Source of the DNA: Nitrosopumilus sp.
Lineage (GTDB): Archaea > Thermoproteota > Nitrososphaeria > Nitrososphaerales > Nitrosopumilaceae
DNA length: 32,000 nt
Direction: 5' to 3'
Assembly: GCA_965249555.1 (NCBI GenBank)
Contig: OZ252243.1
Location: 1,924,961 to 1,956,960 of the forward strand
The notes beneath the pieces are model-generated. The model made no database searches, was not told where the DNA came from, and saw only the letters and a list, made by a program, of their open reading frames with translations. Positions 2,883-30,799 of the stretch are shown piece by piece. The position numbers and the translations under genes are program-made. Every line of letters begins with the position of its first letter. The stretch's first letter is position 1.

Positions 2883-2928
2883 GACTCTTGTCAATCTAGG
2901 TGATCTGACATAGTTAATGCTCAAAAGT
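2883..2928 (+). repeat. Solo copy (46 nt, 2 mismatches) of the dispersed IS-end repeat GGCTCTGGTCAATCTAGGTGATCTGACATAGTTAATGCTCAAAAGT
   Basis: gactcttgtcaatctaggtgatctgacatagttaatgctcaaaagt aligns with the reverse complement of 14749-14794 and with 17016-17061. Confidence 0.8.
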
Positions 2929-3023
2929 TAAATAAACAAATATCTAGACATGGAAGATCAAGTCCATGTGGGATCCGTTTTATTTAACAAGATATTAATT
3001 ATAATGTATTGAGAAATGAAAGC

Positions 3024-3188: not shown

Positions 3189-3266
3189 GTGCTTTTAGAA
3201 AAGATTATGAGAATAAAATTAACTGAAGATTAAAAAATACAACAAATCAAAGGTGAATATTCATAT

Positions 3267-4178: not shown

Positions 4179-4215
4179 GTGATTTGTTAGATAACTGAGG
4201 GTTGGGAGAATATCA

Positions 4216-5329: not shown

Positions 5330-5531
5330 GGCACCTTGTTATAATAAAATTGATAATGACTTGCGGTATGCCTCAAAATAATAAAGCAGTTTATGGCAAT
5401 TTGCTATCTTACAAAGTATACGTGATGCCTGCAGCCCACAAATTGTACAGTTACACCAATAAAACAAAATCAAAGCACCAAAAAAGGTTCTATTAGATTT
5501 ACGGGATCTATCCAAACTGCTGCAAACTTGA

Positions 5532-5547
5532 GGCTCTGGTCAATCTA
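5532..5547 (+). repeat. 16-nt IS-type terminus GGCTCTGGTCAATCTA, a perfect inverted partner of 14779-14794
   Basis: Exact match to the outermost 16 nt of the repeat family. Similarity stops after 16 nt. Confidence 0.7.
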
Positions 5548-5875
5548 CATTTAATCCAATTAAATGAAAGTCTTTATGAGTGGGACAGGTAGTATGTTCC
5601 CATCTCTGAAGTGGATTTTTTGTTTGTGCAACATTTGTGATAAAGTGTTGTAATCTCCATTTACCAAGTTCTGATATGCCTTCTTTTTCTTTTAAAAAAT
5701 CATTCTCATACTTTATACTAATCCAAAATAATTTTTTAATTCCTTAAATTTTCATTATGCCTTGTAAAATTGTAAGAGGTATAGTTTTGGATTTTAGAGA
5801 TTGCTCAACTCTTTTTGTATGCTCATCCTTCCATTCTGGTGCATAACCTAATTTTGTATCCATCTTTTTGATCAT
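5540..5875 (-). pseudogene. 111-codon ORF with one in-frame TAA (5744-5746); unknown function
   Basis: Read by eye: MIKKMDTKLGYAPEWKDEHTKRVEQSLKSKTIPLTILQGIMKI*GIKKLFWISIKYENDFLKEKEGISELGKWRLQHFITNVAQTKNPLQRWEHTTCPTHKDFHLIGLNVD*. The terminal TGA (5540-5542) lies inside the 16-nt terminus. Confidence 0.35.
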
Positions 5876-6058
5876 CTATTATTACCTCCATTAAGCTATA
5901 CATTAGTAGATTAAAAAGAATTCGACTCTTGGCACTGTTAAGTTGACGGGTGCCGTCAGCAAACACCAATGCCAAGAATGATTGGTACAGATATGATGGG
6001 AAAATTATTAAGAAATATGAAAAATGTAGATCTCTCAAAGTCTGAATGAGAATAATGT

Positions 6059-9000
6059 CTAAAATTTATCCAGTCCTTTTTCTCCAAGAGACTCGTCAAA
6101 TTTTTCAGGAGTGATAAACATTGCACCCACTAGCTTTAGTTCAGGTTCCTGTCTCTGTCCTTCCTCTCTGGCCTTGACGGGGGTTGTCTCTTCCTGTATT
6201 CCTATAAATCCACCCAATTTTTTTATTCCAGTTATCAGACTCGTCATATCTTGACTTCGTTGATATTCTGAAAGTAACGAGTTCAAATCATCAGGCCACT
6301 GTCGCAGATATTCTGACTGTATAATGTTGATTGTCTCTTTGCCCTCATCTTTGATAATTTTCCCTTCTAATATTGCATCCAACACAACCTTGCATACAGC
6401 ATCAACATTTCTGTCATGCTTTTGGCGTTTTGTACTGTTACTATTTTTGGCATCTAATGACACTGTATCATTTTTTTTCTTTATTGCCTCTCGTGCCTTT
6501 TTATCTATTTTTAATAACAGTTCAAATGATTTTTGATTATCTTCACCATCCATTGGAAGATGAGTAAAAGTATCTTTCATGCAGGAAGCAAGACGTATTA
6601 CTTCAGAATCATCATCAGGCACCGCTGCCTTGTCTGTCTTGAAATCATAACGTACAAAATATACACGCCATTCTGGTTTTTCTTGCAGGTATGCCAGAAC
6701 CGTCTTTTGACTTTCTCCTTTCTTACCGCTACGTCTTCCTATTGGAATATCTTGAACCGTCTCCATTCCCTTTTCCTTGATGAACCGTCCAAGCTCATTA
6801 ATTGGCGATAATGCCGGCATTACATCGGATTCTTTTTCCATTTTTTGGATTAGTTCATCAGAGCCATCCTTACCTGCAAGTACCTTGATTCTCTGCATGG
6901 CACCATTGAACTGTTTTGGGGTGGGGGCTTCTCCCAATATCTCTGAATCTCCTCCAATTACCTCATCTACAACATGTATCTTGTCTAACAATTTTCCCAT
7001 CAATCTCAAAATATCATCCAGTTCCTTGTCCGGATAACATGCTCTTGTATGAATCACATCATATGTGCTAGTAAGTCTGTCAATTCTGCCTGTTCTCTGG
7101 ACAATTCTCATCGGATTCCAGGGAAGATCATAGTTAATCACATAGTTGCAGTCTTGAAGATTCTGTCCTTCTGCCAAGACCTCAGTTGATATCAGTATGT
7201 CTATCTCTTTTTCTTCCAGTGTGTCACCTTCTGGCAGATTTGCTTTGGGCGAGAATCGTCGGATATACTTTATTCTTGTATCCTGGTTTGTGTTTCCGGT
7301 AATGATTTGGATAACATTGTTTGGGAATTTTTCTTCTAGTTTTTTTGTAATGTATCTGGCAGTTGCAGTATATTCTGTAAATATCAAGAGTTTTTTGCTC
7401 TCATTTTCCAATACTTTTTCCCTTAGGATTGTTTTTGTAACCTCGTCAATCTTTGTGTCAACTGTTATCTTTTTGACCTCCTCTAGTAGGTTTTCCAATA
7501 TTTCCAAATCTTTTTGCATGTCTTGTTTTAGAGTTTCAATATCGTAATTTCTGCTAATCTTTTCTTTTGGGATATCTTCAATTTCTTTGAGGAAAAACTT
7601 CATCTTTTCATCCTCATCTGTATCCGTACTTGGATCCTCACCGGATTCTGCAGAACTCCATTTTGCAATTATCTTGTTAAAGTCTCCAACTCGTAGGATT
7701 TTTCCCTCATCAAACACTTTTTTGATATATGTGTAGAGATTCACTTTGTTCTCAATGCTTATTCTTACTGCCTCTACGCTGCTCTCAAATCTTTTTAATA
7801 ATAATATGACTTGAAGATGTCCTACTGCCCTGTACTTGTTTCTCTCTTCTTCAGTTAGGCTTGTGTCATACTTGTCTATTCCATATGGTGCCATTGTTAA
7901 TCTGCCAATATCATCTAATATCTTTTGAAAAATATTTCCAAACAATTCAGAAAGACTATACTCTATCGAAGAATATTGATGATCTGGAAACTTTATTTTT
8001 TTACCCTCTATCTTGTCATCCTTATACACGTCTTTGATGTATGACCTAGTACGCCTAACCATCACCATATCTAGTAATTGCTCTATCTTTTCTAATCCCT
8101 GTGCAAGATCCTTGTTTGTCGCATCCCTCATGTGTTTGTACAGGTCTGGTATTCCAATTTGACGAGAAAAGTAATCATCATTTCCGCCTGTAATTATTGA
8201 TAATTGATAGTACAAATCCATCAGAGAGTTGTTAATTGGTGTCGCAGTTAGTAATATTGCCTGCTTTCTTTTTCCAACACTCATTAATTTCATCAGATTC
8301 TTTCTCCTGTTTGCACTCTTTGTTCGAAAGTTTTGGGACTCGTCAATTAGTACCAGATCAATATTTTTATATTTACCAAGTGTCTCTATAATCTCTTCTC
8401 TGCCAAGTGACTCCATTGTCAGCATTTCCCGGACATTGATGTCCACTTCTTTTAGTTTCTCCTTCCACATGCTGTTTAAAACCTGGGATGGTGCAATGAG
8501 CAGAACCTTTTTACCCTCTTTTAGTATTTTTTGCCGTACCATCTCTATTCCGATATTGGTCTTGCCAAGTCCTGTTGCATCTGCAATTATAACCCCGCCA
8601 AATTCTGATACAATGAACAGTCCTGCCTGTACTGCATCATGCTGAAATTTTGTTAGCACCTTGTTGCTTTTTGTATCCTGTTCAACTTTTTCAAGCAACG
8701 GCCTGAACCGCTCAAAGAGCATCTTCATGTAAATCGGGTATGGTTCGGATGGAGTGCCAAACTTTGACTGCCTTAGGACATCGATTAATTCCTGTTTTTT
8801 ATCATCTGCATTATCCCACATTCTATCAAACCATTCCCGGGTAGCCTCTGTGACTCCTGGCTGATACAGTCCTGCATTTAGCTCATAATTCTGGGTCATT
8901 CCGCCTGCTGTAAAGTTACTAGAGCCGATAAAGACCGAGTTCTCTCCAAATATGTAGCATTTGGAGTGATTGAACCTGTTTCCACCAATACGGACCTTGA

Positions 9001-9367
9001 TGTTTTCTTTCTCCAACAAATTGATCAAGGCAGTTGTATCGTCTTTATGCTCTACTGTAAGATCAGTATCATCAAGACTTGTCTTTAGTGATTTCATTTT
9101 GATAAATTCTTCATGCTGTTTTACTAATTTTTCAAAAGAGCCTTCCATAGGCAATATTGCATCCTTGCCAAGCAGCAATCTCAACTCAAATGACGGGTCT
9201 TTTGCTGCCTTGTCTAGTTCCTCACGAAGCATGCCATACCCTCGCACATCAAAGTATCCAGTTGAGATATCCAACTGTTTGACAAGTGGAATTTCTGAAT
9301 TGAGAATTTTCTGCATGGTGATATCTTTCGAGTTATCGATGATGTCTTTTTTAATTCTCTTGCCCAT
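6059..9367 (-). CDS. PLD-family (HKD) nuclease domain fused to an SNF2/SF2 helicase, 1102 aa
   Basis: Single HKD motif NHSKCYIFGENSVFIGSSNFTAGG in the N-terminal ~190 aa. Helicase motifs: I ADATGLGKT, II LVLIDESQNFR, III LLTATPINNS, V/VI STEVLAEGQNLQ...NPMRIVQRTGRIDR. About 330-aa C-terminal extension. The start overlaps the upstream MTase stop by 17 nt. Confidence 0.9.
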   Translation of the reverse strand: MGKRIKKDIIDNSKDITMQKILNSEIPLVKQLDISTGYFDVRGYGMLREELDKAAKDPSFELRLLLGKDAILPMEGSFEKLVKQHEEFIKMKSLKTSLDDTDLTVEHKDDTTALINLLEKENIKVRIGGNRFNHSKCYIFGENSVFIGSSNFTAGGMTQNYELNAGLYQPGVTEATREWFDRMWDNADDKKQELIDVLRQSKFGTPSEPYPIYMKMLFERFRPLLEKVEQDTKSNKVLTKFQHDAVQAGLFIVSEFGGVIIADATGLGKTNIGIEMVRQKILKEGKKVLLIAPSQVLNSMWKEKLKEVDINVREMLTMESLGREEIIETLGKYKNIDLVLIDESQNFRTKSANRRKNLMKLMSVGKRKQAILLTATPINNSLMDLYYQLSIITGGNDDYFSRQIGIPDLYKHMRDATNKDLAQGLEKIEQLLDMVMVRRTRSYIKDVYKDDKIEGKKIKFPDHQYSSIEYSLSELFGNIFQKILDDIGRLTMAPYGIDKYDTSLTEEERNKYRAVGHLQVILLLKRFESSVEAVRISIENKVNLYTYIKKVFDEGKILRVGDFNKIIAKWSSAESGEDPSTDTDEDEKMKFFLKEIEDIPKEKISRNYDIETLKQDMQKDLEILENLLEEVKKITVDTKIDEVTKTILREKVLENESKKLLIFTEYTATARYITKKLEEKFPNNVIQIITGNTNQDTRIKYIRRFSPKANLPEGDTLEEKEIDILISTEVLAEGQNLQDCNYVINYDLPWNPMRIVQRTGRIDRLTSTYDVIHTRACYPDKELDDILRLMGKLLDKIHVVDEVIGGDSEILGEAPTPKQFNGAMQRIKVLAGKDGSDELIQKMEKESDVMPALSPINELGRFIKEKGMETVQDIPIGRRSGKKGESQKTVLAYLQEKPEWRVYFVRYDFKTDKAAVPDDDSEVIRLASCMKDTFTHLPMDGEDNQKSFELLLKIDKKAREAIKKKNDTVSLDAKNSNSTKRQKHDRNVDAVCKVVLDAILEGKIIKDEGKETINIIQSEYLRQWPDDLNSLLSEYQRSQDMTSLITGIKKLGGFIGIQEETTPVKAREEGQRQEPELKLVGAMFITPEKFDESLGEKGLDKF

Positions 9368-12300
9368 TTTGTTTCTCCTCTGGTTTTTGTTTTAGTGTTG
9401 ATATGTCGGAATTAAGATCATAATATTTCATAACCCGTTTGTACACCTCACCATAAAATCTTCGCATATGTTCATTTCTATCTGAATCTGATAGTTTTGT
9501 ATAGTTTACATTATTGGATAGTTCGTCTTCTGAAAAGGAATTTTTATCGGATTTAAAATTTTGTAATATACTTTCATATTCACTTTGTGTTAATCCGTAT
9601 TGTAGTGCCGATAATGCATCAATTTCGGATGTTATTTCTATACGGTTAATCAATTGCAAATTCTCAACATCTTTCTTAGAAATAGAAAACACATCGGCCA
9701 TATCTTCATGCCATGTTTCAGAAAGTGTGAGCATTGCACTTAATTTGGATATTTTCTTAGCTATATCACTTGTAAAATTTTCTGGTACTGGTGTATCATA
9801 CAAATGATATGTCTCAACATGTTTGTCAATTTTGAGTCTTATAATAAAATCAAATGTGGTAGAATTGAATATTCCGCATAGATATGCATTGAGTTTATGA
9901 TAATCAGAAGAAATTTCAAACATACCAATACGTGGTATTGCCATATAGGTGGCTATTGTTGTAAATACGGATTGTGGTATGATACATGAGATCATTGTCC
10001 GTGTATTGCTAGTTCCGCTAACGTTTCTATACACAAGTCGTGGATTGTCGTGGATTTCTTTACTCTGACTATTAAATTTTGCAATAGTTTTAACTCGTGT
10101 TAATGTTTTTTTAACGTCTGCACGATATTGCGGTGTAGAATAATTATGAATATGTTGATGAAAGTTTTTTGATTGAAATACTGGCCAACCTCCTTCTTTA
10201 ATGAGTAATTTCCTATCTTTTTTCTCTCCCATGTTTAATTCTCTACCTAAATCGACTTGCCAAATTTTCATGTCTTCGAGCCTAGGATGTAATGCATATA
10301 ATTTCTGCATTATTTCATAATCTTTTTGATTTTTGACTTCATAAATCAATGACATTTTTGGGGATAATTCATTAATCTTCTTTTTAGATAAAACTAATGA
10401 TTTATTTTCCAAATTGTCCAATTCATCTAAAGTTTGCAGATAAAAGGCAGCAGGAAATTTATCAGAACCTTTAGAATTTTGAACACTTAAGAGAGCAAAT
10501 CTATAAGCAGAATGAATTGGAAAAATCTTTTTTCTATTTTCAAAAATACAAAGTGATTTTATGTTCTTTGTTAGAAAATGTTTTCTTAATGCAGTAGCCC
10601 CTCTTGAATTTGCTATTGCAGATGGCATCACCATTGAAAACATTCCACCGGGTGCCAATACCTGTAATGAACGTTCAATAATTATTCGATACAAATCAAA
10701 ATCAGTGTTCTCACCCAAACCCCCATGGTTTTTATAAAATTCTCTTTTATCATCAAAACCTTTTTTGTATTTTTTATATTCTTCATCATATTTTTTTCGT
10801 GTTTTTTCCTTATCTTTGGTAGATTTGTCCCTGTATTCGAAATCTAAATTCCCAAAAAATTCATTGTTATTGGGTCTTACTTTATCCCAAGGGGGGTTCC
10901 CAATTATCAAATCAAACCCTCGTCTTGAATCAGTAAATGCATCCATCATTGCTAATTCCCATTGGAAAAATCTATAGGTATTAGATTTGTTACGAATGTT
11001 TTGAATTGTTAACTTTTCGTCTTGATTCATATCTGCTCCTAAAACCACATCAGAGATTCGTTTAAGATAAGCTGGAATATTTTTTTGTGCTTTTTTTGGT
11101 ATAATATCATTATCCATTTTTAATGCAGTTATTGTGTCGAGCATCATTTTGTGTGGTCTAATTTGTTTCATGTATTCGGCATAGGCGTTTTTACTATCTT
11201 GTACTTGACCTACCGTAATATCTGAATTATGCCCCACAAGAGTGATAAATTTGGAAGATTTTTCAGGATCTTCAATCCAATTATCAAGACTTTGTTCTGT
11301 GGGATTTTTTAATTCATCAAGACGTACTCCTATTGTGGAATCTCCATTTTTGATATGATGATCCATGTATGTTAATGGAACACCTATTGCAAAGGAATCA
11401 AGCCATAAGGATAACTTTGCCAGATTTACTGCCATTGGGTTGAGGTCAACTCCAAATATACATCGCTTCATTATTTTGCGTTTTAATAATACGTCATGAG
11501 TGAGAAGATTTTCATCTATTGTGATTTTATTTTTCTTTTGCTCTGCAAGTATTGTCATTCTATCTGATTCAATCTCTTCTAATAATGGATGCCCAGGGTA
11601 TGTCTTGAGTATATCAGTTGCCCACATGGTAATTCTATTCAAAGATTCTACAAGAAAATGCCCACTTCCCATTGATGGGTCTAATACCTGTATGTCAAGT
11701 ATTCGATCCATACATGTTTTCAAATCTTTTTCATTCTTACTTTTTTTATATTGTTTCACATCTTCTGCAATTAATTTTTCACGTTCATCAAATATGGGAT
11801 TCAATCCCTGGTTTACTAGAAATGTTACAATCTCATCTGGGGTGTAAAAGCTGGCTGAGGTCTTTCGTGATACAATGCCCCCTTTTGATGCAAGATACAG
11901 GTCATTTTTCTTGTAAGAGTACGTTGCATCCTTTTGCGTTTTTATCTCTCTTACTCCCTTTGAATCTTCAAGTAGCATGATGTCTTTTTCAGTCTGACGT
12001 GGACTGAATTCCATCAAGGTCTCAAAGATGTTCCCTAAATGTCTGACACTAAAATCTGCATAATCTATTGCCCCTCCATCATCTTCCAAAAGACCATAAA
12101 GTGCATTTACAATAAACTTGTTCCCAATTGATATGTCGTCAATAGATGGGTCTTTTTTAAACAAATCCCCGTTGTATTGTGGAAGATTGTGTTTCTGGCT
12201 TCCGTTTCTTATTCCATCAAACAGAACAAGTAGAGCCTTCCAACACTCATCATCAGTATTTTTTTCAAAAGAATCAAGATGGTTCCGAATTGATTGCAGT

Positions 12301-13418
12301 GATATTGGCTTGTATTTTGCATCTCTAGTGGGTAAAAGATTTCTAGATTCAGCATATGCCAAGAACCATATGCGGTACATTATTTTCAGAGAGGTCTGTT
12401 TTGCTGATTCCAATTCCTCACTTGTAAATGTCTTTTTCATGTCATGCTCAAGAACACCCTTTACAATATCCAAGAACAGTCCATCCGGACTCATTATATT
12501 ATCTGAAAGATTTTCCTCTATCTCTTTGGCATAGTTTTTGCCCTCTTCAAAGAATGAATCAATATCCCTTTTCTCACCTATTTTTTCAAATGATGCCGCA
12601 CCAAACAACATTATGAGATATTTTGTAATACTGTCCTGTGCAGAGTCTAGTGATATCTCAAAATAATTAGTACTCGATGCGGAAATTTTGGCAGAATAAA
12701 GTCTCCATTTTTTGCCATTAGTAAGTATTGCCCACTGTGATTCACGTAATGTGGCAACTGCAATATAGCTTGGGGCGACCTCTGTTTCATTTTTTCTAAT
12801 GCTGAGATTGTCCTGATCTGTAACAGTTATGGATACTGTTTTGTCAAAATATGGACCAGAATTTGAAATATCCCAACCCAATTCAAAAAGCAGTTGTTCT
12901 GTATCTCCTATCTTTTCTTTTGCATTCCCTAGTTTGTCGTCAACATTTTGTCGTGTGTCTGTAAATATTCTGTTACGTAGATAGTGGGTAGAAAATAATC
13001 CCCTGTTTACAAAATCTCCTGTGGCATTTGATATTTTGTCAATTAATGTTCGGATTGCAAGCTGTAGATCAATATCATCCTGTGCGCTTTCCATGTTTGT
13101 TGATTTTAAAATGTTCGTAACACGTTGATATTCTGAATCATTTTCCAAAGATATAGTGTAACTTTGATCTAATGATTTGAAAAATAAGATATTTTTTTCT
13201 TTTAAAAATATAATACATGTGTTGAAATTTTTTGTCTGTTTTTTTACTTCTCGAACATTTTTTGGTCCGCTTTCAACAAATATGATCGGAACTTTTTTTG
13301 ACGGATTTAGATGATTAAGACTGTAGCAAAGCCATTCTTTGTGAAGTGGTGGTTGTATCTCTCGTTTGGTATCAAGACTGACTCCCATTGAGGCAAATAA
13401 TGTCTCTTGTGAAGACAA
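9351..13418 (-). CDS. Large gamma-class N6-adenine DNA methyltransferase (Eco57I/Type IIG-ISP-like) with long N-terminal and C-terminal (putative TRD) regions, 1355 aa
   Basis: Motif X FYTPDEIVTFLV, motif I VLDPSMGSGHFLV, motif IV IIGNPPW, in gamma order. The N-terminal region has WAILTNGKKWRLYS, reminiscent of restriction-enzyme N-terminal modules, but I see no clear D..ExK. The track start is TTG 13418; ATG 13388 (MGVSLD) is an alternative. Confidence 0.9.
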   Translation of the reverse strand: MSSQETLFASMGVSLDTKREIQPPLHKEWLCYSLNHLNPSKKVPIIFVESGPKNVREVKKQTKNFNTCIIFLKEKNILFFKSLDQSYTISLENDSEYQRVTNILKSTNMESAQDDIDLQLAIRTLIDKISNATGDFVNRGLFSTHYLRNRIFTDTRQNVDDKLGNAKEKIGDTEQLLFELGWDISNSGPYFDKTVSITVTDQDNLSIRKNETEVAPSYIAVATLRESQWAILTNGKKWRLYSAKISASSTNYFEISLDSAQDSITKYLIMLFGAASFEKIGEKRDIDSFFEEGKNYAKEIEENLSDNIMSPDGLFLDIVKGVLEHDMKKTFTSEELESAKQTSLKIMYRIWFLAYAESRNLLPTRDAKYKPISLQSIRNHLDSFEKNTDDECWKALLVLFDGIRNGSQKHNLPQYNGDLFKKDPSIDDISIGNKFIVNALYGLLEDDGGAIDYADFSVRHLGNIFETLMEFSPRQTEKDIMLLEDSKGVREIKTQKDATYSYKKNDLYLASKGGIVSRKTSASFYTPDEIVTFLVNQGLNPIFDEREKLIAEDVKQYKKSKNEKDLKTCMDRILDIQVLDPSMGSGHFLVESLNRITMWATDILKTYPGHPLLEEIESDRMTILAEQKKNKITIDENLLTHDVLLKRKIMKRCIFGVDLNPMAVNLAKLSLWLDSFAIGVPLTYMDHHIKNGDSTIGVRLDELKNPTEQSLDNWIEDPEKSSKFITLVGHNSDITVGQVQDSKNAYAEYMKQIRPHKMMLDTITALKMDNDIIPKKAQKNIPAYLKRISDVVLGADMNQDEKLTIQNIRNKSNTYRFFQWELAMMDAFTDSRRGFDLIIGNPPWDKVRPNNNEFFGNLDFEYRDKSTKDKEKTRKKYDEEYKKYKKGFDDKREFYKNHGGLGENTDFDLYRIIIERSLQVLAPGGMFSMVMPSAIANSRGATALRKHFLTKNIKSLCIFENRKKIFPIHSAYRFALLSVQNSKGSDKFPAAFYLQTLDELDNLENKSLVLSKKKINELSPKMSLIYEVKNQKDYEIMQKLYALHPRLEDMKIWQVDLGRELNMGEKKDRKLLIKEGGWPVFQSKNFHQHIHNYSTPQYRADVKKTLTRVKTIAKFNSQSKEIHDNPRLVYRNVSGTSNTRTMISCIIPQSVFTTIATYMAIPRIGMFEISSDYHKLNAYLCGIFNSTTFDFIIRLKIDKHVETYHLYDTPVPENFTSDIAKKISKLSAMLTLSETWHEDMADVFSISKKDVENLQLINRIEITSEIDALSALQYGLTQSEYESILQNFKSDKNSFSEDELSNNVNYTKLSDSDRNEHMRRFYGEVYKRVMKYYDLNSDISTLKQKPEEKQNGQEN

Positions 13419-13451
13419 TTAGAGGTCTCCAACTTTGAGCAGATTTCGGTG

Positions 13452-13510
13452 ATTGGAAGAAGGAATTGGAAGAAGGAATTGGAAGAAGGAATTGGAAGAA
13501 GGAATTGGAA
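13452..13510. repeat. Tandem repeat, 13-bp unit ATTGGAAGAAGGA x4 perfect plus a 7-nt partial copy
   Basis: Units at 13452-13464, 13465-13477, 13478-13490 and 13491-13503, with a partial unit at 13504-13510. The array lies 33 nt upstream of the MTase TTG start. Confidence 0.95.
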
Positions 13511-13602
13511 TTGAGTGTCAGTCATGCAATGGGGGCTTAAGTTAGCCGATATTTTAATCCCATGGAATCAAATATGATGTATGATTTCCATACATGAATA
13601 AT

Positions 13603-13812
13603 TCAAATTTTCCTCTGTTCATCCTTTACCCTCTTCATCTTCTGTATCATCTCATCCCTCTTACTTTTTAAAAGACTGTATTCGTATTGTAATGCGGTTT
13701 TTTTGGACTTTGCAGACACCTCAGGACCTCAATATTTCTGTACAGTCTTGCCATTTTCAAAATATTCAAAGTAGGTGTATTTTTTCCCGTATTTTCTTAG
13801 ATTATACCTACC
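13603..13812 (-). pseudogene. ORF remnant with in-frame TGA (13729-13731), no start codon
   Basis: Read by eye: HGRYNLRKYGKKYTYFEYFENGKTVQKY*GPEVSAKSKKTALQYEYSLLKSKRDEMIQKMKRVKDEQRKI*. The ...GKxxxKY(L)G... pattern resembles C-terminal tails seen in mobile-element proteins, from memory only. Confidence 0.3.
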
Positions 13813-13846
13813 ATGTTAATTTAAAAAATACATATCTTATAACATG

Positions 13847-14725
13847 TTATTTTATTCCTATCGGGGCTTGACTTGCAAATGTCACCTTCTTTTCAAATGG
13901 GGTCTTGCCAAAACGAATCCATGATCGAACATTGGAATTAAAGAACCATGTAAAGCCAATGGATGTAAGAATATTGCAGATATCCCTCCATTGTTCTGAT
14001 TCAAGCCATCCCTTGGGTTCCACTTTTATGACATCACCACTAGCAAAGACAGATACACAATCGTTGTAATTTCCAAGTTTCTGGGTTATCTTTCTATTCT
14101 CTGAGACATTCTTGCTTGCAGCCATTGGGATTAATGTGTGATATTTTCCAGCAGAGACATCGTCTGTGATTGGTTTTAGCGTATCTACATACATCTTTAT
14201 GATTTTAGAAAATTTTTGAACCCAGATAATAATCGTATTGTGTGGAATTGGAATATTGTGAGAGAAATTTATGTGATCTGAGGCTTTGCGATATGACATG
14301 CCAGACATTACCATGTTAAGGGAAGATGTAATTATTTCTGGCGTATATTGTCTTCTCAAAACCTATCTCAGTTGAGACAAATCTTCTGTTGCACGACTTG
14401 CACTTGTTTTGATGATTTCTTGCCTGCCTTTGTGTACTTTGTGGTTCCTCAGTTGATACAGGCAATCACATGCTGTATTGGTTCTTGAGGAACCAGGCAC
14501 CACCTGTTTTGGAATAGTTGGGACGATAATTTTGTATTGTTTTATGACCTCAAGTATGTGATCACATAATTTATCATCAGAGCCTACTCTGATGGCATCA
14601 AGAAATTCTTTACATGTGCATGTCCATGAATTAGGATTCTTTCTATTTCTTTCTGCAACATATGATTTGTGTAAATAGTTTGATGTGACAATGAATCTAG
14701 GGGTTTTTTCAGGGGGGTCGGGCAA
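13847..14725 (-). pseudogene. Transposase-like protein (N-terminal SWIM zinc finger plus HTH) interrupted by in-frame TAG (14363-14365); no DDE core recognisable
   Basis: SWIM CxCx16CxH: WTCTCKEFLDAIRVGSDDKLCDHI. The frame continues ...SQLR*VLRRQYTPEIITSSLNMVMSGMSYRKASDHINF (HTH-like). The ORF begins immediately inside the repeat-family terminus. Confidence 0.55.
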
Positions 14726-14794
14726 TTCGAATAAGATCCATATTTGAGACTTTTGAGCATTAACTATGTCAGATCACCTAGATTGACCAGAGCC
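14699..14794 (-). repeat. IS-end repeat, ~96 nt, outer end at 14794
   Basis: The reverse complement aligns over ~95 nt with 17016-17110, mostly identical apart from a divergent ~9-nt stretch (ctgacatagtt versus ctagtatggat). The outer 46 nt also align with 2883-2928. Confidence 0.85.
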
Positions 14795-15093
14795 GTGTTG
14801 GTTCATCCTCAAAGAGTAAATAACCAATCTATTTTTAGTTTATTTTCTTTTTTGTATTTTTCATAATTCAATCATACCTAATTCCCTTTTGTATTATTTA
14901 GTATGATCTAGATGTGGTTACATTTCACAAATAACAATCACAGTAATAATACATATTATTTATGATAAATTTGACATATAGTAATTAAGATAATATTATT
15001 GAAATTTTGTTATTTAGTTTAATCTCCAATAGTGAGTTAATAGCCTCAAACTCCTAGTATTCATTTTAATACGAATCTGTTTTTTCAGAATAT

Positions 15094-16890: not shown

Positions 16891-17015
16891 GTTTGATAAA
16901 AAACCTGACATGTATAATGGAACAATCTGTAATTCATCTATATGTTAACAATGATTAATCTATATTTGGTTTAAAATTTGAGATTCTTGAAAACTCATCC
17001 AGTAATACAATTTTA

Positions 17016-17110
17016 GGCTCTGGTCAATCTAGGTGATCTAGTATGGATAATGCTCAAAAGTGACAAATATGGATCTTATTCTAATTGCCTGACCTCCTGA
17101 AAAAACCCCT
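17016..17110 (+). repeat. IS-end repeat, ~95 nt, outer end at 17016; degraded IS interior follows to ~17530
   Basis: ggctctggtcaatctaggtgatcta...aatgctcaaaagtgacaaatatggatcttattctaattgcctgacctcctgaaaaaacccct aligns with the reverse complement of 14699-14794. The ORF start is corrupted: LPDLLKKPLIKSD... versus MPDPPEKTPRF.... Confidence 0.85.
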
Positions 17111-17573
17111 GATCAAAAGTGATATAAAAAATTCCTGAATACTATCAGAATTCCCCAAAATATACACTGTACAATTTTGGTGATCCGGACTCAGAATTCT
17201 AAAACAGACGTTTCTGATCTTTCTTGATATGCTTTTTGTTTTTACCAGTAGGTTTTTTGGGATTTTTAGAAATCTCAGCTCTGCATTTATGACAGTTTGG
17301 CTGTCAGACCACCATGCAAAAGTCTGCCTTGATGGATGTGTTGCATTGCGCATAAAGATAAGAACTTTTTTTATCGTTAATCACAAAACACTTGTTTTCT
17401 GCATTTGATAAAAGAGTGTGAATTTTTTTCTGATCAATTTCAGATAAAAATTCAGGTTTTTTACTGCATGGGGATATTATTGGTTTTAATTCTGTAGTGG
17501 ATTGTTCTAGTCAAGTACTTTAGAATGATAAAAGCGATTTACATCTTTTATACTACCAAATATTTTGAATTCT

Positions 17574-25050: not shown

Positions 25051-25069
25051 ATATAGTTATTTTATCATC

Positions 25070-25402
25070 TCAGAAAACATGCTCAATCCCCTTGGTTTCC
25101 CGTGCCTCAAGGCATGCAAGAAAGACGGAGATCATCCTCATACCCTGATTTGTGCGTGAAGGTTGATACATACTTTTCATACTGTTAAATTCTTCCTGGG
25201 TTATTTCGCCTTTGACAAATCTGGTCTTAAGAAGTGTCATTGGGTTTTCGGCAACTTGGACATTGGAAATAGGTTTGCTGGTGTCCTCTTTATTTTCCTT
25301 TACTTCTTTGATTTTATCACGAATGTAATTGTATAAAATTTCTGCCTAGTCTTTTGGTATTACAACAATTGTTCCTTCTGCATTTCGTCCTCAAATGGCC
25401 AT
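25070..25402 (-). pseudogene. Chimeric remnant: SHOCT-like ORF with two in-frame stops, fused to an IS66-like tail
   Basis: Read by eye: MAI*GRNAEGTIVVIPKD*AEILYNYIRDKIKEVKENKEDTSKPISNVQVAENPMTLLKTRFVKGEITQEEFNSMKSMYQPSRTNQGMRMISVFLACLEARETKGIEHVF*. The stops are TGA at 25391-25393 and TAG at 25346-25348. LLKTRFVKGEITQEEF fits the SHOCT pattern. Confidence 0.4.
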
Positions 25403-25579
25403 ATTATGACCAGCCTTTGACATCTGTCATTCTATGTAATGAAAACACCCGACGCGCAACACGAATAAGATCCTTATTGAGTATATTCGATTTGGTAAAT
25501 CCGAACCCGTGAAGGTTGTAAATATTTATCAACATATACAAAACAATATGAACATGGAATATTGTGGGGGTAATGAGAA

Positions 25580-27440
25580 ATGACGAAGAAAATTAATAAA
25601 GAATCTGTAAACATAATAGATGAGAAAATATCTATTTTAAAGAAAAACTTTCCTGAATGCTTTATCGGGGGGGGGGGGGTTAAATTTTGATAGACTTAGA
25701 AACTCTTTAGGGGATCTGGTGGATACGGGGGATGAAAAATACACATTTTCTTGGGCTGGTAGGAAAGACACATTCGAAAATATTCAGACAACTAGCAAGG
25801 GAACACTTATTCCAGATAAATCTGAATCTGTAAACTTTGATGATACGGAAAATCTTTTCATTGAGGGTGATAATTTGGAAGTCTTAAAATTATTGCATAA
25901 ATCATTATTTCAAAAAGTTAAAATTATTTACATTGATCCCCCATACAATATAGGTAGTGATTTCATCTACAAAGACGATTTCAAAAAAGGTGTAAATAAT
26001 TATCTGGAGCAGACAAATCAATCAAAAGACGGAATAACATTAACCACAAATCCAGAAACATCTGGACGATTTCATTCTGATTGGATATCATTTATGTATG
26101 CAAGATTGTTTGTGGCTAAAAATTTACTTTCTGATGATGGTGTGATCTTTGTATCTATTGGTGACAATGAAGTTCATAATTTGAAATTTATAATGAATGA
26201 TATATTCGGAGAAGAAAACTTGATATCAGAAGTTATTTGGCATAGCAAGTACACTACGTCAAATGATAAAAAACTCATATCTACACAGCATGAATATGTC
26301 ATGATTTATGCAAAAAATATTCATAGAGCAAATTTCAACCTATTGCCACGTACAGAAAAAGCTGACAAGGATTACAAAAATCCAGACAACGATCCTCGTG
26401 GAAAATGGAAGCCCACACCAATACATGCAAAGAGTGGTAAAAATAATATAAAATATAATTTTACTAACATACGCAAGTTTGACGGCAAAAAAATACCCTC
26501 TTTTGTTTGGTCTGCACCAAAAGGAAGATATCCAAGATATAGCAAAGAAACACTGGGAAGACTTGAGGCAGACAATAGAATAAGCTGTGGTATAAATGGA
26601 ACAGGTGTGCCTAATTCCAAAACTTTTCTCAATGAAGTCCAACAAGGAATGGTATCAGGGTCTTTATGGAAATATGAGGATGTGGGACATACCCATGGAG
26701 CAAATGAGGAATTATCCGATTTGATAGGTAAGGGTGTTTTTGATAATCCAAAACCTGTGAAATTAATTAAAAGAATATTACAGTTATCAACAAATTCAAA
26801 AGGTAATGATATTGTATTGGATTTTTTTGCTGGCTCTGGAACCACCGCACACTCTGTATTGGGATTAAACAAAGAAGATGGTGGAAATAGAAAATTTATT
26901 TGTGTTCAAATACCAGAAACAATAGAGGATGAACTAGAAAACAAACCCACAATAGATTTCTTAAAAGAATTAAAAAAACCCATGAATATTTCCGAAATAT
27001 GCAAGGAAAGAATAAGACGTGTTATCAAGAATCTAGATTCAAATCAGGGATTCAAGGTATTCAAACTTGCAAAATCAAACTATAACATCTGGGAGAATTA
27101 TGATGGAAAAGACCAAAAAAAATTAAAAGAACAGATGAAAATATTTGCGACCCCATTAATTGAAAAATACAAGGATATTGATGTAATTTATGAATGCATA
27201 ATAAAAGAAGGGTATAATCTGAACAGTAAATTGGAAAAATTAACTATCAAACCAAACACCATATACAAGATATCAAATGATGATAAAATATTCTATCTGA
27301 CATTGGATAAAATAATAAAACTTGATAGTGTGGAAGAATTGGAACTTGGTAAAAACCAAACTTTGTTTTGTTTAGATTCATCACTGGATGACAGTATGAA
27401 GATGAATTTATCAAAACAATGTACACTGAAAACAATATAG
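25580..27440 (+). CDS. mod: Type III R-M Mod methyltransferase (beta-class N6A/N4C), reading frame split at a G13 tract
   Basis: Motif IV IYIDPPYN, then motif I LDFFAGSGTTAH. The 5' fragment is ATG 25580..TGA 25690. The main frame is open from 25641 (track ORF 25719..27440). The two frames are offset by +1 across the G run. Confidence 0.9.
25667..25679 (+). repeat. Homopolymeric G13 tract inside the 5' end of mod
   Basis: Counted directly: 4 G at 25667-25670 plus 9 G at 25671-25679. Confidence 0.95.
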
Positions 27441-27441
27441 A

Positions 27442-30024
27442 GTGAATATTATGGAGATAGAATTTTTATCAAATCTTGACTTTCAATTAAATGCCATAAA
27501 GTCAACCGTATCCATTTTTGAATCTCAGAAATTTAAAAGGGACACTTCTCTCCTGATGGGGGAAATAATTTCAAATAATCTGAATCTAACAACACCACAA
27601 ATACTAGATAATATAAAAAAAATCCAAGAAAGAAATAATATTGATCTAGTTAAAGAATTAAAAGGAATGAATTTTTCAATAGAGATGGAAACTGGGACAG
27701 GCAAAACATATGTTTATCTTAAAACAGTATTTGAATTGTATCAAAATTACGGGTTCAAAAAGTTTCTAGTAATTGTACCCTCTGTTGCAATACGAGAGGG
27801 GGTGATCAAAACTCTACAAATGACACAAAAACACTTTAGAGATATTTATGATAAAATCCCTTATGATTATTACGAATATGATTCAAAGAAAATCAATCAA
27901 ATCAGGCAATTTGTAAGATCTAATGATATTCAAATTATGATCATGACGATTGACTCTTTTAATAAAGATAATAACATAATGAATCAAGCACAGGACAAAC
28001 TAAATGGTGAAAAACCAATACACGTGATAAGCAAAACAAACCCAATAATGATATTGGACGAGCCACAAAACATGGAAAGCGACAAAACCAAAGATGCGAT
28101 ATCTAACATGAAACCGTTATTCACATTAAGGTATTCTGCAACTCATAAAGATGTTTACAATCTTGTATACCGTCTCAGCCCAGTTAATGCGTATAACATG
28201 AATCTTGTGAAAAAGATCGAAGTTATGTCAGTAATTAAAAACAACAAATTTAACCACTTACTTATCAAATGTGAAAAAATTATAGCTGAAAAGAAAGGAA
28301 TCAGGGCAAAACTATCGCTTAATAAAAAAACTGAAACGAATTACAAAGAAAAATTATTTGTGATTAAAATTGAAGACGATTTGGAACAAAAAACCAACAA
28401 TCCTGAATATAGTGGATTCATAGTATCTGAAATTGATGCAAAACGTAATTTTATCAGATTTACAAATGGAATCAAAATAAAGCTTGGTGAGGGGGAGGGC
28501 ACAGACAGAGAAGAAATAATGAAAAACCAAATTAGGCAGACAGTAGAAGAGCACTTTGAAAAGGCCGTGAGATTGAAGAAAAAGGGAATAAAGCCACTAT
28601 CATTGTTTTTTATAGATAAGGTGGACAACTATGTCCCAAAAGATGGGTTCATAAAAAAAACATTTGAGAATTCATTTGATAAATTAAAAAAGAATTATCC
28701 ACAATTTAAAAATTTGAAGGCAAAGGATGTTCACAAGGGATATTTTTCTAAACGAAAATCAGATAGTGGAATGGAGAATGATAAAGAGGTATTTAATTTA
28801 ATAATGAAGGATAAAGAAAAATTAATCTCTTTTGAGGAGCCAGTTCAGTTTATCTTTTCACACTCAGCACTAAGAGAAGGGTGGGATAATCCAAACGTGT
28901 TTAACATCTGTACACTAAATCAGACGAAATCTGTAATCAAAAAAAGACAGGAAATAGGGAGGGGGATGAGACTGCCAATAAACCAAGAGGGGGTAAGAGT
29001 CCATGGAGACCAGAATATTTTGTCTGTAATCGCAAATGAACACTATGCAAATTATGCGAAAACACTTCAATTGGAATATGAGGAAGAATATGGGTATGGA
29101 AATTCCCCTGGAATTCTTGATAGTTCAGAAAGAAAAACACTGAAATTAAAAAAGGGTTTTGAGTTAAATCCTGAATTTCAGAAACTTTGGAAAAAAGTAT
29201 CAAAAAAGACAAAATATGCGGTATCTATTGACACTAAACATCTGATAAAGTCATGTGTGGAAAGGATAGACTCGTCTGTTACCGTGTCCCCAATCAATAT
29301 CGATATTATAACTGCAACGCTGTCGGTAGTAGGAGATGATTCAGAGGTAAAAGTGGACACGGATATTGTTGGAATGGGTGGTGATAAGTTTGAAACACAG
29401 TTTTCAATTCCCAATATTATTGAACATTTAGCCAACGATACAAAATTAACACGTAATACCATATTATACATATTAACAAAAACCAGTAAACTTAATCAGA
29501 TTTTTTTGAATCCACAATTTTTCATATCCAGAATATCAGATATTATAAAAGATGAATTGAAAAATTTTCTGGTAAATGGTGTAAAGTATCAAGAAATAGA
29601 AGAATGGTATAAGATGGAATTGTTTGAAGATATTATAACCCATAAAGAGGTTGTTTCTGTAAAACACTCCATATATGAGAAACTGATTCGTGAATCTGAT
29701 GTTGAGGAAGGGTTTGCCGTAAGCCTCGACAAACAACCCAATGTCAGATTATTTACAAAATTACCAGATTGGTTCAAAGTGCAAACTCCAATTGGTGGTT
29801 ATAATCCTGACTGGGCTATTATGTTAAATGATATGGATGAACATAAGAGATTACGTGAAAAACTATACCTTGTGTCTGAAACAAAGGGAGCCATTAGCCC
29901 CAGAAGCCGTTCAATTGATGAGAATGACAAGATCAGGTGTGCCAGGAAGCATTTTGCGGAAATTGACACAAAGTATGATGTAGTAACAAGCATCGATGAC
30001 TTTCTAAAAAACCTCAAAAATTAA
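27442..30024 (+). CDS. res: Type III restriction enzyme Res subunit (SF2 helicase plus C-terminal PD-(D/E)xK nuclease)
   Basis: Motif I METGTGKTYVY, motif II IMILDEPQN, HSALREGWDNPNVF. Nuclease motif YNPDWAIML...LYLVSETKG. Starts 1 nt after the mod stop, at GTG 27442 or ATG 27451. Confidence 0.92.
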   Translation: MNIMEIEFLSNLDFQLNAIKSTVSIFESQKFKRDTSLLMGEIISNNLNLTTPQILDNIKKIQERNNIDLVKELKGMNFSIEMETGTGKTYVYLKTVFELYQNYGFKKFLVIVPSVAIREGVIKTLQMTQKHFRDIYDKIPYDYYEYDSKKINQIRQFVRSNDIQIMIMTIDSFNKDNNIMNQAQDKLNGEKPIHVISKTNPIMILDEPQNMESDKTKDAISNMKPLFTLRYSATHKDVYNLVYRLSPVNAYNMNLVKKIEVMSVIKNNKFNHLLIKCEKIIAEKKGIRAKLSLNKKTETNYKEKLFVIKIEDDLEQKTNNPEYSGFIVSEIDAKRNFIRFTNGIKIKLGEGEGTDREEIMKNQIRQTVEEHFEKAVRLKKKGIKPLSLFFIDKVDNYVPKDGFIKKTFENSFDKLKKNYPQFKNLKAKDVHKGYFSKRKSDSGMENDKEVFNLIMKDKEKLISFEEPVQFIFSHSALREGWDNPNVFNICTLNQTKSVIKKRQEIGRGMRLPINQEGVRVHGDQNILSVIANEHYANYAKTLQLEYEEEYGYGNSPGILDSSERKTLKLKKGFELNPEFQKLWKKVSKKTKYAVSIDTKHLIKSCVERIDSSVTVSPINIDIITATLSVVGDDSEVKVDTDIVGMGGDKFETQFSIPNIIEHLANDTKLTRNTILYILTKTSKLNQIFLNPQFFISRISDIIKDELKNFLVNGVKYQEIEEWYKMELFEDIITHKEVVSVKHSIYEKLIRESDVEEGFAVSLDKQPNVRLFTKLPDWFKVQTPIGGYNPDWAIMLNDMDEHKRLREKLYLVSETKGAISPRSRSIDENDKIRCARKHFAEIDTKYDVVTSIDDFLKNLKN

Positions 30025-30274
30025 ATCTGATGTTAAATAAATAATTTATTCTGCTTCCTAAGATGGTATAATTTCTTTAAAAAATATTTCATAAATTCAT
30101 ATTACATTCATTGGTAAGTGATATACAAAACAACAACTTAACAGTAAAAACCTCTAATTAGGTCAGTCCTGTTGAATCCTCTCTACTCAATCCTGAGAAG
30201 ATCATGATTTCATGTCTACCCTATAACCCAACAGTGCCCACATGGCAAAATACCTTTAAAACCGACAGGTATTA

Positions 30275-30325
30275 ATTCCATCCCTCGAATGGAACACCCA
30301 CTGATTCCATCCCTCGAATGGAACA
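30275..30325. repeat. Two direct copies (29-bp period) of the 22-nt unit ATTCCATCCCTCGAATGGAACA, each with the palindrome TTCCAT-n7-ATGGAA
   Basis: Copies at 30275-30296 and 30304-30325. A third degenerate half-site CTCGAAGATGGAACA lies at about 30357-30371. Confidence 0.85.
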
Positions 30326-30799
30326 TTTTGTTGAAATCATGGAAATTTGGGAAATCACTCGAAGATGGAACAGTGTAAAGATCCTCACCTAACACCCACA
30401 GATGCAACAGAACCAATAAGGAAATAGATATAATTAACTTGGAAGGGGTTGATTCGAATAGTGAAGTCAAATTGTTCTGAAACTGTTTCAATTTCTTGGC
30501 ATGGATAAAAATATCCAATTGTCTTCAATAGTCTTTTTTACAAATCCCCATGCTTGGTCATGACAGGTTTTTATGATGGTATTATGTAATTAAATTAATG
30601 GATGAACCAAAATTGAAGACAAGCACATTTGGAGATAATTTTGTTGTTACTGAAAATGAATCCATTGCAATTTTAAAAAAAATAACCAGTAAATATAGTT
30701 AATTTTTGTATCACTGTTGTAGAAATAATGGCTTTTCAGATATAGTTGTGATAAAAACAATGCAAAAAACTAAATCTGCAACATTTTGAACTAAAAGAA

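What the first reader, a model, noticed from the sequence alone, without database searches (positions are those of the whole stretch)
5532..14794. The defence operon sits inside a 9.26-kb unit bounded by perfect 16-bp inverted IS-type termini
GGCTCTGGTCAATCTA at 5532-5547 is the exact reverse complement of 14779-14794, with both outer ends facing outward. The right end is the terminus of a repeat family seen at least three more times in the window. It is followed inward by a SWIM+HTH transposase-like gene (disrupted). The left end contains the stop codon of a small ORF (5540-5875), which is typical of IS ends. Everything between is that ORF, the PLD-SNF2 gene, the MTase gene, the 13-bp repeat array and transposase debris. 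Inference: either a cargo-carrying transposon that mobilised the defence operon, or an IS split by insertion of the operon. Caveat: I see no target-site duplication. The flanks are aaacttga at 5524-5531 and gtgttggt at 14795-14802.
Basis: partly seen in the sequence, partly recalled or inferred. Interest (0 to 1): 0.65.

Follow-up and report, generated by a model that had tools for sequence, protein, structure and literature searches.

The report
Fossil archaeal transposon carrying defence genes
The 16-bp inverted repeats are genuine ends of an IS6-like transposon family of ammonia-oxidising archaea that habitually carries restriction-modification genes. This copy is dead and eroded, and the 5532 end is only a 16-bp stump, so the exact 9.26-kb unit is not proven.

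Summary
Observation confirmed. GGCTCTGGTCAATCTA occurs exactly at 5532(+), 14779(-) and 17016(+), and with 2 mismatches at 2883(+). There is no target-site duplication.

Interpretation partly supported. The 14794 end belongs to a pseudogenised transposase (SWIM-like CxC..CxH, Zn-ribbon, HTH, IS240/IS6-type DDE). Its DDE core is deleted but its C-terminus is retained, so "IS split by the operon" is rejected.

In Nitrosopumilales genomes, relatives form units of 2.3-13.4 kb bounded by 46-103-bp inverted repeats. Seven have perfect 8-bp target duplications, and nearly all carry restriction-modification or other defence cargo. The same transposase-MTase-PLD/SNF2 module sits at another chromosomal site (L044) inside a 16.7-kb unit with ~57-bp inverted repeats.

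The 5532 end shares only 16 nt with the family terminus. On its inner side it abuts a truncated foreign gene, joined at a microhomology junction, so it is a deletion stump. A 46-bp, distal-type inverted repeat at 2883 (44/46 identical) is an equal or better partner, giving an 11.9-kb unit. More end stumps lie at 5922-5949.

Verdict: an immobilised fossil of a cargo transposon in a defence island, with its distal boundary unresolved. The family itself seems undescribed. A 2019 survey states that cargo-carrying transposons had not been found in archaea.

The parts
14699..14794 (-). Transposase-proximal end (type A terminus; outermost 16 nt = 14779-14794), including the subterminal motif AAATATGGATCTT
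   Evidence: Homologous to L002:9780-9875, to 17016-17110 and to 2882-2928. Homology starts at the GG tip.
13847..14725 (-). Transposase pseudogene: SWIM-like CxC..CxH, Zn-ribbon, HTH, then C-terminal extension. The start region and the DDE core (P0001 residues 204-360) are deleted, and the Zn-ribbon region is frameshifted
   Evidence: tblastn: P0001 residues 20-203 and 361-467 only. P0001 hits PF13610 at 38.6 bits.
13603..13814 (-). Homologue of the 71-aa small ORF that follows the transposase in L002/L044; here it has a premature stop
   Evidence: No Pfam hit.
13518..13547 (-). Conserved 30-nt block (GGCnAAnTTAAnCCCCCATTGCATGACTGA) that ends the IS-side module and abuts the array
   Evidence: Shared with L002 and L044 upstream of different cargo genes. 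Absent in L045, L055 and L056.
13452..13516 (-). 13-nt tandem array just upstream of the MTase start; a feature of the cargo gene, not of the IS
   Evidence: Orthologues without the IS also have an array, with a different unit.
9351..13418 (-). Eco57I/MmeI-type (type IIG-like/DrmMI-like) DNA methyltransferase, intact
   Evidence: Orthologues of 1316-1329 aa.
6059..9367 (-). PLD(HKD)-SNF2 helicase/nuclease, intact; partner of the MTase
   Evidence: (PADLOC 'HKD+Snf2' 1e-56).
5922..5949 (+). Two further end stumps. TCGACTCTTG (identical to 2881-2890) overlaps by one base GGCACTGTTAAGTTGACGG, the terminus type of a sister SWIM-IS240 family
   Evidence: The L016:3904-7929 element has such IRs with a 370-aa SWIM+IS240 transposase and an MTase.
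5548..5888 (-).
   Evidence: 76-80% DNA identity to L046:9781-10129. The homologue P0133 continues 29 aa further.
5532..5547 (+). 16-bp stump of the type A terminus, with its inner side pointing towards the operon
   Evidence: The junction with the truncated gene lies at 5540-5548 with 5/8 microhomology.
2883..2928 (+). Distal-type terminal IR (44/46 identical to 14749-14794); alternative partner giving an 11.9-kb unit
   Evidence: score 94; 0/500 shuffles. Homology stops at about the same point as the L044 right IR.
17016..17185 (+). Third copy: a transposase-proximal end of 170 nt, then cut off by a fragment of another IS240-like element
   Evidence: 17005-17185 ~ L002:9769-9955; 17192-17303 ~ L002:21404-21293.
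25063..30377 (.). Second decayed family element. Transposase remnant (25063-25530, -), type III Mod (25719-27440) and Res (27442-30024), then nested termini at 30220-30238(-) and 30278-30377(-)
   Evidence: Same layout as L021 and L029.

Best explanation
The region is an immobilised, eroded copy of a cargo-carrying DNA transposon. It belongs to an IS6-superfamily lineage of Nitrosopumilales.

The family (shown in relatives):
- The transposase is about 450-467 aa: N-terminal SWIM-like CxC..CxH, Zn-ribbon, HTH, IS240-type DDE core, and a ~100-aa C-terminal extension.
- Everything between two long terminal inverted repeats moves as one unit.
- These repeats have an IS6-like tip (GG/TA..CTGkTcAA) plus subterminal repeats, and insertion makes an 8-bp target duplication.
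- The passenger genes are almost always restriction-modification or other defence genes.

The window copy (shown):
- The transposase-proximal end is at 14794.
- The transposase is dead: start region deleted, frameshifts, DDE core deleted.
- The MTase + PLD-SNF2 operon downstream of it is intact.
- GGCTCTGGTCAATCTA at 5532 is a real copy of the family terminus in the orientation expected for a distal end.
- It is a 16-bp stump. A deletion joined its inner half, at a 5/8 microhomology, to the middle of an unrelated small gene.

Inferred:
- The operon arrived here as cargo. The same transposase-operon junction occurs at another chromosomal site in L044 inside a 16.7-kb IR-bounded unit.
- Which end was last used as the distal end cannot be decided: 5532, the better preserved 46-bp IR at 2883, or the stumps at 5922-5949.
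- Four ends stacked in the same orientation below the operon suggest a distal boundary that was replaced outward step by step, accreting cargo.
- The unit cannot move on its own any more.
For: - Terminus copies and the sharp outer homology boundary.
- Transposase identity and lesions. The nearest annotated relatives are IS6-family (ISCpe7-like) transposases at 27-28% identity.
- The tip matches the published IS6 consensus of GG tip, cTGTt, caaa (PMC7986276).
- Family architecture: long IR pairs around the transposase plus cargo in 23 of 42 related loci (17 distinct elements), 2.3-13.4 kb.
- Perfect 8-bp TSDs flank L013, L021, L023, L024, L026, L032 and L036.
- A 4976-bp element is duplicated at 99.98% identity at two loci of one genome (L005/L025).
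- L024/L032 and L021/L029 are colinear through cargo and transposase in different genomes. L024 and L032 each have their own TSD; L029 has none.
- Cargo is R-M/defence in about 13 of 17 elements.
- Same module elsewhere: L044 carries terminus, transposase remnant, small ORF, conserved block, array, MTase and PLD-SNF2. It is colinear with window 14615-6046, lies between other flanking genes, and has a ~57-nt inverted family IR 8.4 kb downstream (score 83, 0/500 shuffles).
- Stump nature of 5532.
- 2883 as a distal-type IR.
- A second family element with type III R-M in the same window.
Against: - No target-site duplication for 5532/14794 or for 2883/14794.
- No second copy of the window's unit was found. 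The window's own proteins are not in the contig index.
- The metagenome and viral scans gave no close relatives.
- The operon also occurs without this transposase in three other islands (L045, L055, L056). Linkage is therefore not obligatory, and the IS could have inserted next to a resident operon.
- The only intact close relative (L002) has no recognisable full distal IR. It has a perfect 22-nt inverted copy of the subterminal motif 8.7 kb away, and the outer part is not significant.
- In most relatives the cargo lies upstream of the transposase, whereas here it lies downstream. L026, L004 and L035 do carry downstream cargo.
Confidence: 0.72

Rival explanations
1. 5532-14794 (9.26 kb) was the mobile unit, with 5532 as its working distal end. 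The end was later trimmed to 16 bp by an internal deletion.
For: - 16/16 identity in the correct inverted orientation.
- Classical IS6 IRs are only 14-20 bp (PMC7986276), so 16 bp might once have sufficed.
- The size is within the family range.
Against: - Family IRs are 46-103 bp, and the L044 distal IR is ~57 bp.
- The inner side of the 16-mer is a truncated foreign gene joined by microhomology.
- No TSD.
- The stump is equally identical to the 17016 copy (17/17).
Confidence: 0.28
2. The last functional unit was 2883-14794 (11.9 kb). The 46-bp IR at 2883 is the true distal end, and the 16-mer at 5532 and the stumps at 5922-5949 are internal relics of earlier boundaries or nested insertions.
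For: - 44/46 identity, with the 30 nt that follow the 16-mer identical (30/30).
- IR length and the point where homology stops match the L044 right IR and the family norm.
- Orientation is correct.
Against: - No TSD (AACAAATC vs GTGTTGGT).
- The genes at 3009-5329 have no defence signature.
- The left flank is itself IS debris, so the context is rearranged.
Confidence: 0.37
3. The operon was never cargo here. The operon was resident in a defence island, and family transposons inserted repeatedly around it, then decayed, leaving solo ends. The inverted 16-mers are unrelated remnants.
For: - The operon occurs without the transposase in L045, L055 and L056.
- In L055 a family element starts just outside the operon.
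- Termini of family and sister-family elements are often within 10-50 nt of each other, which hints at targeted insertion.
- The window holds at least seven family or sister-family ends.
Against: - The window and L044 share the identical IS-block/array junction and colinear transposase plus operon at two different chromosomal sites. This needs co-transfer or two identical independent insertions.
- All four left-hand ends point towards the operon.
Confidence: 0.2
4. An IS was split by insertion of the operon.
For: Only the inverted 16-mers themselves.
Against: - The transposase N-terminus, C-terminus and downstream small ORF are contiguous at 13603-14794, colinear with intact L002.
- The sequence next to 5532 is a foreign gene.
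- The operon lies beyond the end of the transposase gene.
Confidence: 0.02

Closest known systems
IS6/IS26 family insertion sequences, especially the long Zn-finger clade such as ISCpe7
   Same: - IS240-type DDE domain (PF13610).
- HTH preceded by a Zn-ribbon.
- 8-bp target duplication.
- Terminus with GG tip and CTGkT..CAA motif.
- The best annotated tblastn hits are IS6-family transposases.
   Different: - Only 27-28% identical.
- Extra N-terminal SWIM-like domain and a ~100-aa C-terminal extension.
- IRs are 46-103 bp with subterminal repeats, instead of 14-20 bp.
- Elements are 2.3-13.4 kb with passenger genes inside one IR pair, not ~0.8-kb ISs that flank cargo as direct repeats.
Transporter IS (tIS) such as ISDsp3, the single IS6-family member reported with a passenger gene (PMC7986276)
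   Same: The transposase and passenger gene(s) lie inside one pair of IRs.
   Different: Here carrying cargo is the rule. It is usually a complete R-M or other defence system of up to about 11 kb, and the hosts are archaea.
Tn7-like and Tn3-family bacterial transposons that carry defence systems as cargo (PMC8649781)
   Same: Unit transposons whose variable cargo is dominated by defence genes; they build defence islands.
   Different: Unrelated transposition machinery: a single IS6-like DDE protein, no TnsABC/resolvase, and 8-bp rather than 5-bp TSD.
Mobile forms of restriction-modification systems and IS-mediated end capture such as ISEcp1 (from my own knowledge, not tested)
   Same: R-M genes bounded by repeats; the distal boundary can shift outward when an alternative end is used.
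   Different: The stacked ends here are true family termini rather than fortuitous look-alikes, and no event has been caught in the act.

Membership tests
IS6/IS26 family (superfamily level) | DDE transposase matching the IS240/IS6 catalytic domain | tested here: met
   The intact relative P0001 hits PF13610 at 38.6 bits (cut-off 27). Its best annotated relatives are IS6-family transposases. In the window copy itself the DDE core is deleted.
IS6/IS26 family (superfamily level) | 8-bp target-site duplication | tested here: inconclusive
   Perfect 8-bp TSDs in 7 relatives. None for any end pair in the window.
IS6/IS26 family (superfamily level) | Short (15-20 bp) IRs with GG tip and cTGTt / caaa motifs | tested here: inconclusive
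   The window tip GGCTCTGGTCAATCTA fits the motif with 2 deviations. Family IRs are 46-103 bp, and many start with TACACTG rather than GG.
IS6/IS26 family (superfamily level) | Compact ~0.7-0.9 kb (up to 1.76 kb) element with a single transposase gene; cargo carried only between directly repeated IS copies | tested here: not met
   The smallest elements are 2.3-2.4 kb and already carry an extra gene. Cargo lies inside one inverted-repeat pair.
Unit (cargo-carrying) transposon / tIS | Transposase and passenger genes within one pair of terminal IRs | tested here: met
   Relatives. Window: the transposase remnant and operon lie between inverted family ends (16 bp at 5532 or 46 bp at 2883, and 14794).
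Unit (cargo-carrying) transposon / tIS | Whole unit flanked by a TSD and/or present as identical copies at different sites | tested here: inconclusive
   Met in relatives. Not met for the window unit: no TSD and no second copy. The same module does occur at another site in L044.
Composite transposon (two complete IS copies flanking cargo) | A second IS copy with its own transposase at the other boundary | tested here: not met
   tblastn with P0001 finds only the 13850-14698 remnant. 5532 and 2883 are bare ends.
   W-x-C-x-C ... C-x-H is invariant in 11 family members. PF04434 does not hit P0001; it hits the sister-family transposase in L016 exactly at the cut-off (19.6 bits).

The most novel reading that the evidence does not exclude
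Nitrosopumilales and related ammonia-oxidising archaea host an undescribed family of IS6-superfamily unit transposons, with at least one sister family. They have a SWIM/Zn-ribbon/HTH/DDE transposase, long composite IRs and an 8-bp TSD, and they specialise in carrying restriction-modification and other defence systems. They would be the first cargo-carrying DDE transposons recognised in archaea. They would also give a physical explanation for the joint enrichment of transposases and R-M systems in sponge-associated Thaumarchaeota. The stacked same-orientation ends below the operon (5931, 5532, 2883; likewise 30238 and 30377 beside the type III system) would record stepwise cargo accretion by outward replacement of the distal end, which would make these elements builders of archaeal defence islands.
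Probability: 0.45. Interest if true: 0.75.

Novelty: new variant of a known kind. Interest (0 to 1): 0.58.

Why it matters
If the family-level picture holds, transposon-borne defence is not limited to bacteria, where Tn7-like and Tn3-like elements carry it.

- An archaeal lineage of global biogeochemical importance would move complete R-M systems on IS6-like unit transposons.
- A 2019 survey of thaumarchaeal mobile elements stated that passenger-carrying transposons had not been detected in archaea (PMC6563490).
- The IS6 review lists a single passenger-carrying member (PMC7986276).
- The finding offers a concrete mechanism for how defence islands are assembled and exchanged in these genomes.
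- It also provides a set of natural elements (intact transposase P0001, defined ends, TSDs) that could be tested as archaeal genetic tools.

The window copy itself is only a fossil.

Tried and rejected
- Extended similarity of the 5532 end to the 14794 end beyond 16 nt: none.
- An IRR for an 'IS proper' after the small ORF, in L002 and in the window: only an 82% copy of the subterminal motif in L002; the outer parts are not significant.
- The conserved block CCCCCATTGCATGACTGA as a hidden right terminus: by-eye comparison of its reverse complement with the left end found no convincing match. The repeat scan of L002:9770-11830 also found none. The dedicated scripts failed to run.
- Exact-protein look-ups of the window's own 598-aa and PLD-SNF2 proteins, to find the source contig or strain variants: not on record.
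- Metagenome scan with P0001: only distant hits at 34-37% identity. Viral scan with a 24-nt terminus pattern: nothing.
- Pfam and PADLOC on the small ORFs (psi-ORF, the 71-aa ORF, P0133): no hits.
- Rfam and tRNA scans, to test whether the 16-mer is part of an RNA gene or att site: no overlap.
- TSD search for every end pair in the window, including inverted-complement pairings for 14794/17016: none.
- L048 and L049 turned out to be strain variants of the L044 locus, so they are not independent.
- L005/L025 have no clean TSD despite being identical copies.


Full report
**Observation.** GGCTCTGGTCAATCTA is present exactly at 5532-5547(+), 14779-14794(-) and 17016-17031(+). It is present with two mismatches at 2883-2898(+) (0.15 matches expected at <=3 mismatches; 0/100 shuffles reach 4). 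Aligning the copies shows that homology starts sharply at the GG tip.
- The 2883 copy shares 46 nt with the 14794 copy (44/46). The 30 nt that follow the 16-mer are identical.
- The 17016 copy shares about 95 nt with the 14794 copy, and 170 nt with the intact relative.
- The 5532 copy shares only the 16-mer (17 nt with the 17016 copy). Its inner sequence scores no better than shuffles.

**What the 14794 end belongs to.** Reading inward from 14794, three frames must be combined to follow one protein. It has a SWIM-like WxCxC...CxH motif, a CxxC...CxxC Zn-ribbon and an HTH.
- A search with the reconstructed protein found full-length homologues of 461-474 aa carrying PF13610 (DDE_Tnp_IS240). The best is P0001 at 69% identity.
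- tblastn shows that the window retains P0001 residues 20-203 and 361-467, in one frame. The DDE core was lost by a deletion between two TGDV(W)SA repeats.
- 186 nt including the start codon are also missing.
- Because the C-terminus and the following 71-aa small ORF (here with a premature stop) lie directly next to the N-terminal part, the IS is not split by the operon.

**The family.** One scan of species-representative genomes with an alignment of 11 homologues gave 41 loci. Forty are assigned to Nitrosopumilus, Nitrosotalea, Nitrososphaera, Cenarchaeum and related MAGs; one short contig is labelled Dehalococcoidia.
- Self-comparison shows long terminal inverted repeats (46-103 nt) around the transposase in 23 of 42 loci, which make 17 distinct elements. 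Element sizes run from 2.3 to 13.4 kb.
- Their tips (TACACTGTTCAATCT...) are homologous to the window's GGCTCTGGTCAATCT. They fit the IS6 consensus of a GG tip with cTGTt and caaa motifs (PMC7986276).
- Seven units have perfect 8-bp target duplications: L013, L021, L023, L024, L026 (13.4 kb), L032 and L036.
- A 4976-bp unit occurs twice at 99.98% identity in one genome (L005/L025).
- L024/L032 and L021/L029 are colinear through cargo and transposase at 76-81% identity in different genomes. L024 and L032 each have their own TSD; L029 has none.
- The cargo is overwhelmingly restriction-modification or other defence. It includes type III (L021, L029), type I (L026, L005), M+S (L023), HaeIII with a D12 MTase (L024, L032) and EcoRI-MTase with GmrSD/HNH (L013).
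- It also includes SNF2, Mrr and MT-A70 (L019), an MTase with a TIR protein (L004), MTases (L010, L034) and type ISP with GmrSD (L002).
- A sister family with a 370-aa SWIM+IS240 transposase and GGAACTGGTAACTTGACGG-type IRs also carries an MTase (L016:3904-7929).
- The nearest annotated proteins are IS6-family (ISCpe7-like) transposases at 27-28% identity.

**Is the operon cargo here?**
- The closest intact relative (L002) has the same layout as the window: terminus, transposase, small ORF, a conserved 30-nt block, a tandem array, then a large R-M gene. In L002 that gene is a type ISP enzyme.
- The closest orthologue of the PLD-SNF2 protein (88%, L044) sits at another chromosomal site, between a TENA/THI-4 gene and a phosphoribosyltransferase gene.
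- L044 is colinear with the window from the transposase remnant through the PLD-SNF2 stop (window 14615-6046), and it has the same block/array junction.
- L044 has a diverged left terminus right after the TENA stop. It also has an inverted ~57-nt family IR 8.4 kb beyond the operon (score 83, 0/500 shuffles). This makes a 16.7-kb IR-bounded unit.
- This is the main evidence that transposase and operon travelled together.
- Against it, three more distant orthologous operons (L045, L055, L056) lack this transposase. Linkage is therefore not universal.

**The 5532 end.**
- The segment 5548-5888 is 76-80% identical to a two-ORF locus in L046. The second ORF there (P0133) runs 29 codons further.
- Homology breaks inside the inner half of the 16-mer (5540-5548), where 5 of 8 bases match.
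- The truncated gene lies on the inner side of the terminus, where IS sequence should be. The 16-mer is therefore what a deletion left of a longer end.
- It is not an intact short IR, and it is not an insertion into that gene.

**Other candidate ends near the operon.**
- The 157-nt segment between that locus and the PLD-SNF2 stop holds two more stumps in the same orientation. TCGACTCTTG is identical to 2881-2890. It overlaps by one base GGCACTGTTAAGTTGACGG, a sister-family terminus.
- The 2883 IR stops being homologous at about the same position as the L044 right IR. It looks like a genuine distal-type IR, whereas the 17016 copy is a transposase-proximal end.
- There are thus three or four stacked candidate distal ends, all pointing at the operon. 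None has a TSD with 14794.
- I rate 2883 slightly above 5532 as the last functional partner, and I cannot exclude that neither was.

**Wider context in the window.**
- A second decayed family element lies at 25063-30377. It has a transposase remnant, a type III Mod/Res pair, and two nested termini at 30220-30238 and 30278-30377. This is the L021/L029 layout.
- IS66-like and IS110-like debris are also present.
- The region is therefore a defence island largely built from, and eroded around, these transposons.

**Comparison with what is known.**
- The machinery is IS6-like: DDE type, 8-bp TSD and tip motif.
- The elements fail the family's structural definition of a compact IS with short IRs and cargo only between direct IS repeats.
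- They behave like unit transposons or tIS. The IS6 review lists one passenger-carrying member.
- A survey of thaumarchaeal mobile elements stated that passenger-carrying DNA transposons had not been detected in archaea (PMC6563490).
- A 2026 archaeal IS survey does not describe cargo.
- A sponge-symbiont study notes enrichment of both transposases and R-M systems without linking them (PMC7848895).
- My literature search was limited to open-access text, so prior description elsewhere cannot be excluded.

**Verdict.** The 'cargo transposon' reading is right in kind, but the 9.26-kb boundaries are not demonstrated, and the element is a fossil. The specific locus is of moderate interest. The family it reveals is the more valuable result.

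Noticed in passing
window 13452-13516; L044:5925-5965; L045:~5975-6005; the regions just upstream of the MTase start (~5900-6000) in L055 and L056; L002:11810-11853: Every orthologue of the Eco57I-like MTase, and the type ISP gene of L002, has a tandem array of a 10-13-nt unit (3.5-6 copies) just upstream of its start codon. The unit sequence differs in each case: TTCCTTCTTCCAA, CACTCCATCT, CTTACAACAA, GTTCGCGTCA, CACAGACTTTA and TTCCTTCCTAC. The MTase orthologues diverge mainly in a central, probably target-recognition, block. This could be a phase-variable or methylation-sensing promoter element that co-varies with specificity.
   Followed up: partly
window 25580-25720: A run of 13 G (about 25668-25680) interrupts the 5' end of the type III mod gene. 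An ATG at 25580 opens a frame that stops just after the run, and one G fewer would fuse it in frame to the 25719-27440 ORF. The PADLOC match to Mod starts at profile position 53, which fits a missing N-terminus. This is either a phase-variation switch or a homopolymer assembly error.
   Followed up: partly
window 2547-2638 (+): Rfam DUF3800-X RNA motif above its gathering score (46.7 vs 38.2 bits). It lies between IS66-like debris and the 2883 terminus.
   Followed up: no
window 25063-30377: A second decayed SWIM-IS240 element carrying a type III R-M system. It ends in a ~100-nt IR with three subrepeats (30278-30377), with another terminus nested inside at 30220-30238.
   Followed up: partly
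L021:5755, L036:8928, L013:11736, L016:3904/7911, L012:1929/2934: Termini of the sister family (GGnACTGkTAAGTTrACGG) often lie within 10-50 nt of the ends of SWIM-IS240 elements. This suggests that these transposons insert preferentially next to or into each other's ends.
   Followed up: no
L002:9830-9851, 11652-11673, 18539-18560; window 14723-14745, 17065-17077; L055 ~13430: A subterminal motif AAATATGGATCTTcTCtGAATTG recurs about 50 nt inside ends that have different outer tips. In L002 it also recurs after the small ORF, and in perfect inverted form 8.7 kb downstream. It may be the conserved transposase-binding module.
   Followed up: partly
window 2000-2430 and 24703-25186: IS66-family transposase C-terminal debris at 2000-2284, with a related fragment at 25063-25186. 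An IS110-type (DEDD) fragment lies at 24703-25050.
   Followed up: no
window 22914-23067; L044:13590-13690: A 42-nt tandem repeat (3.7 copies) inside a coiled-coil ORF (22791-23099). In L044, a 22-nt unit is repeated about 5 times just downstream of the PLD-SNF2 operon.
   Followed up: no
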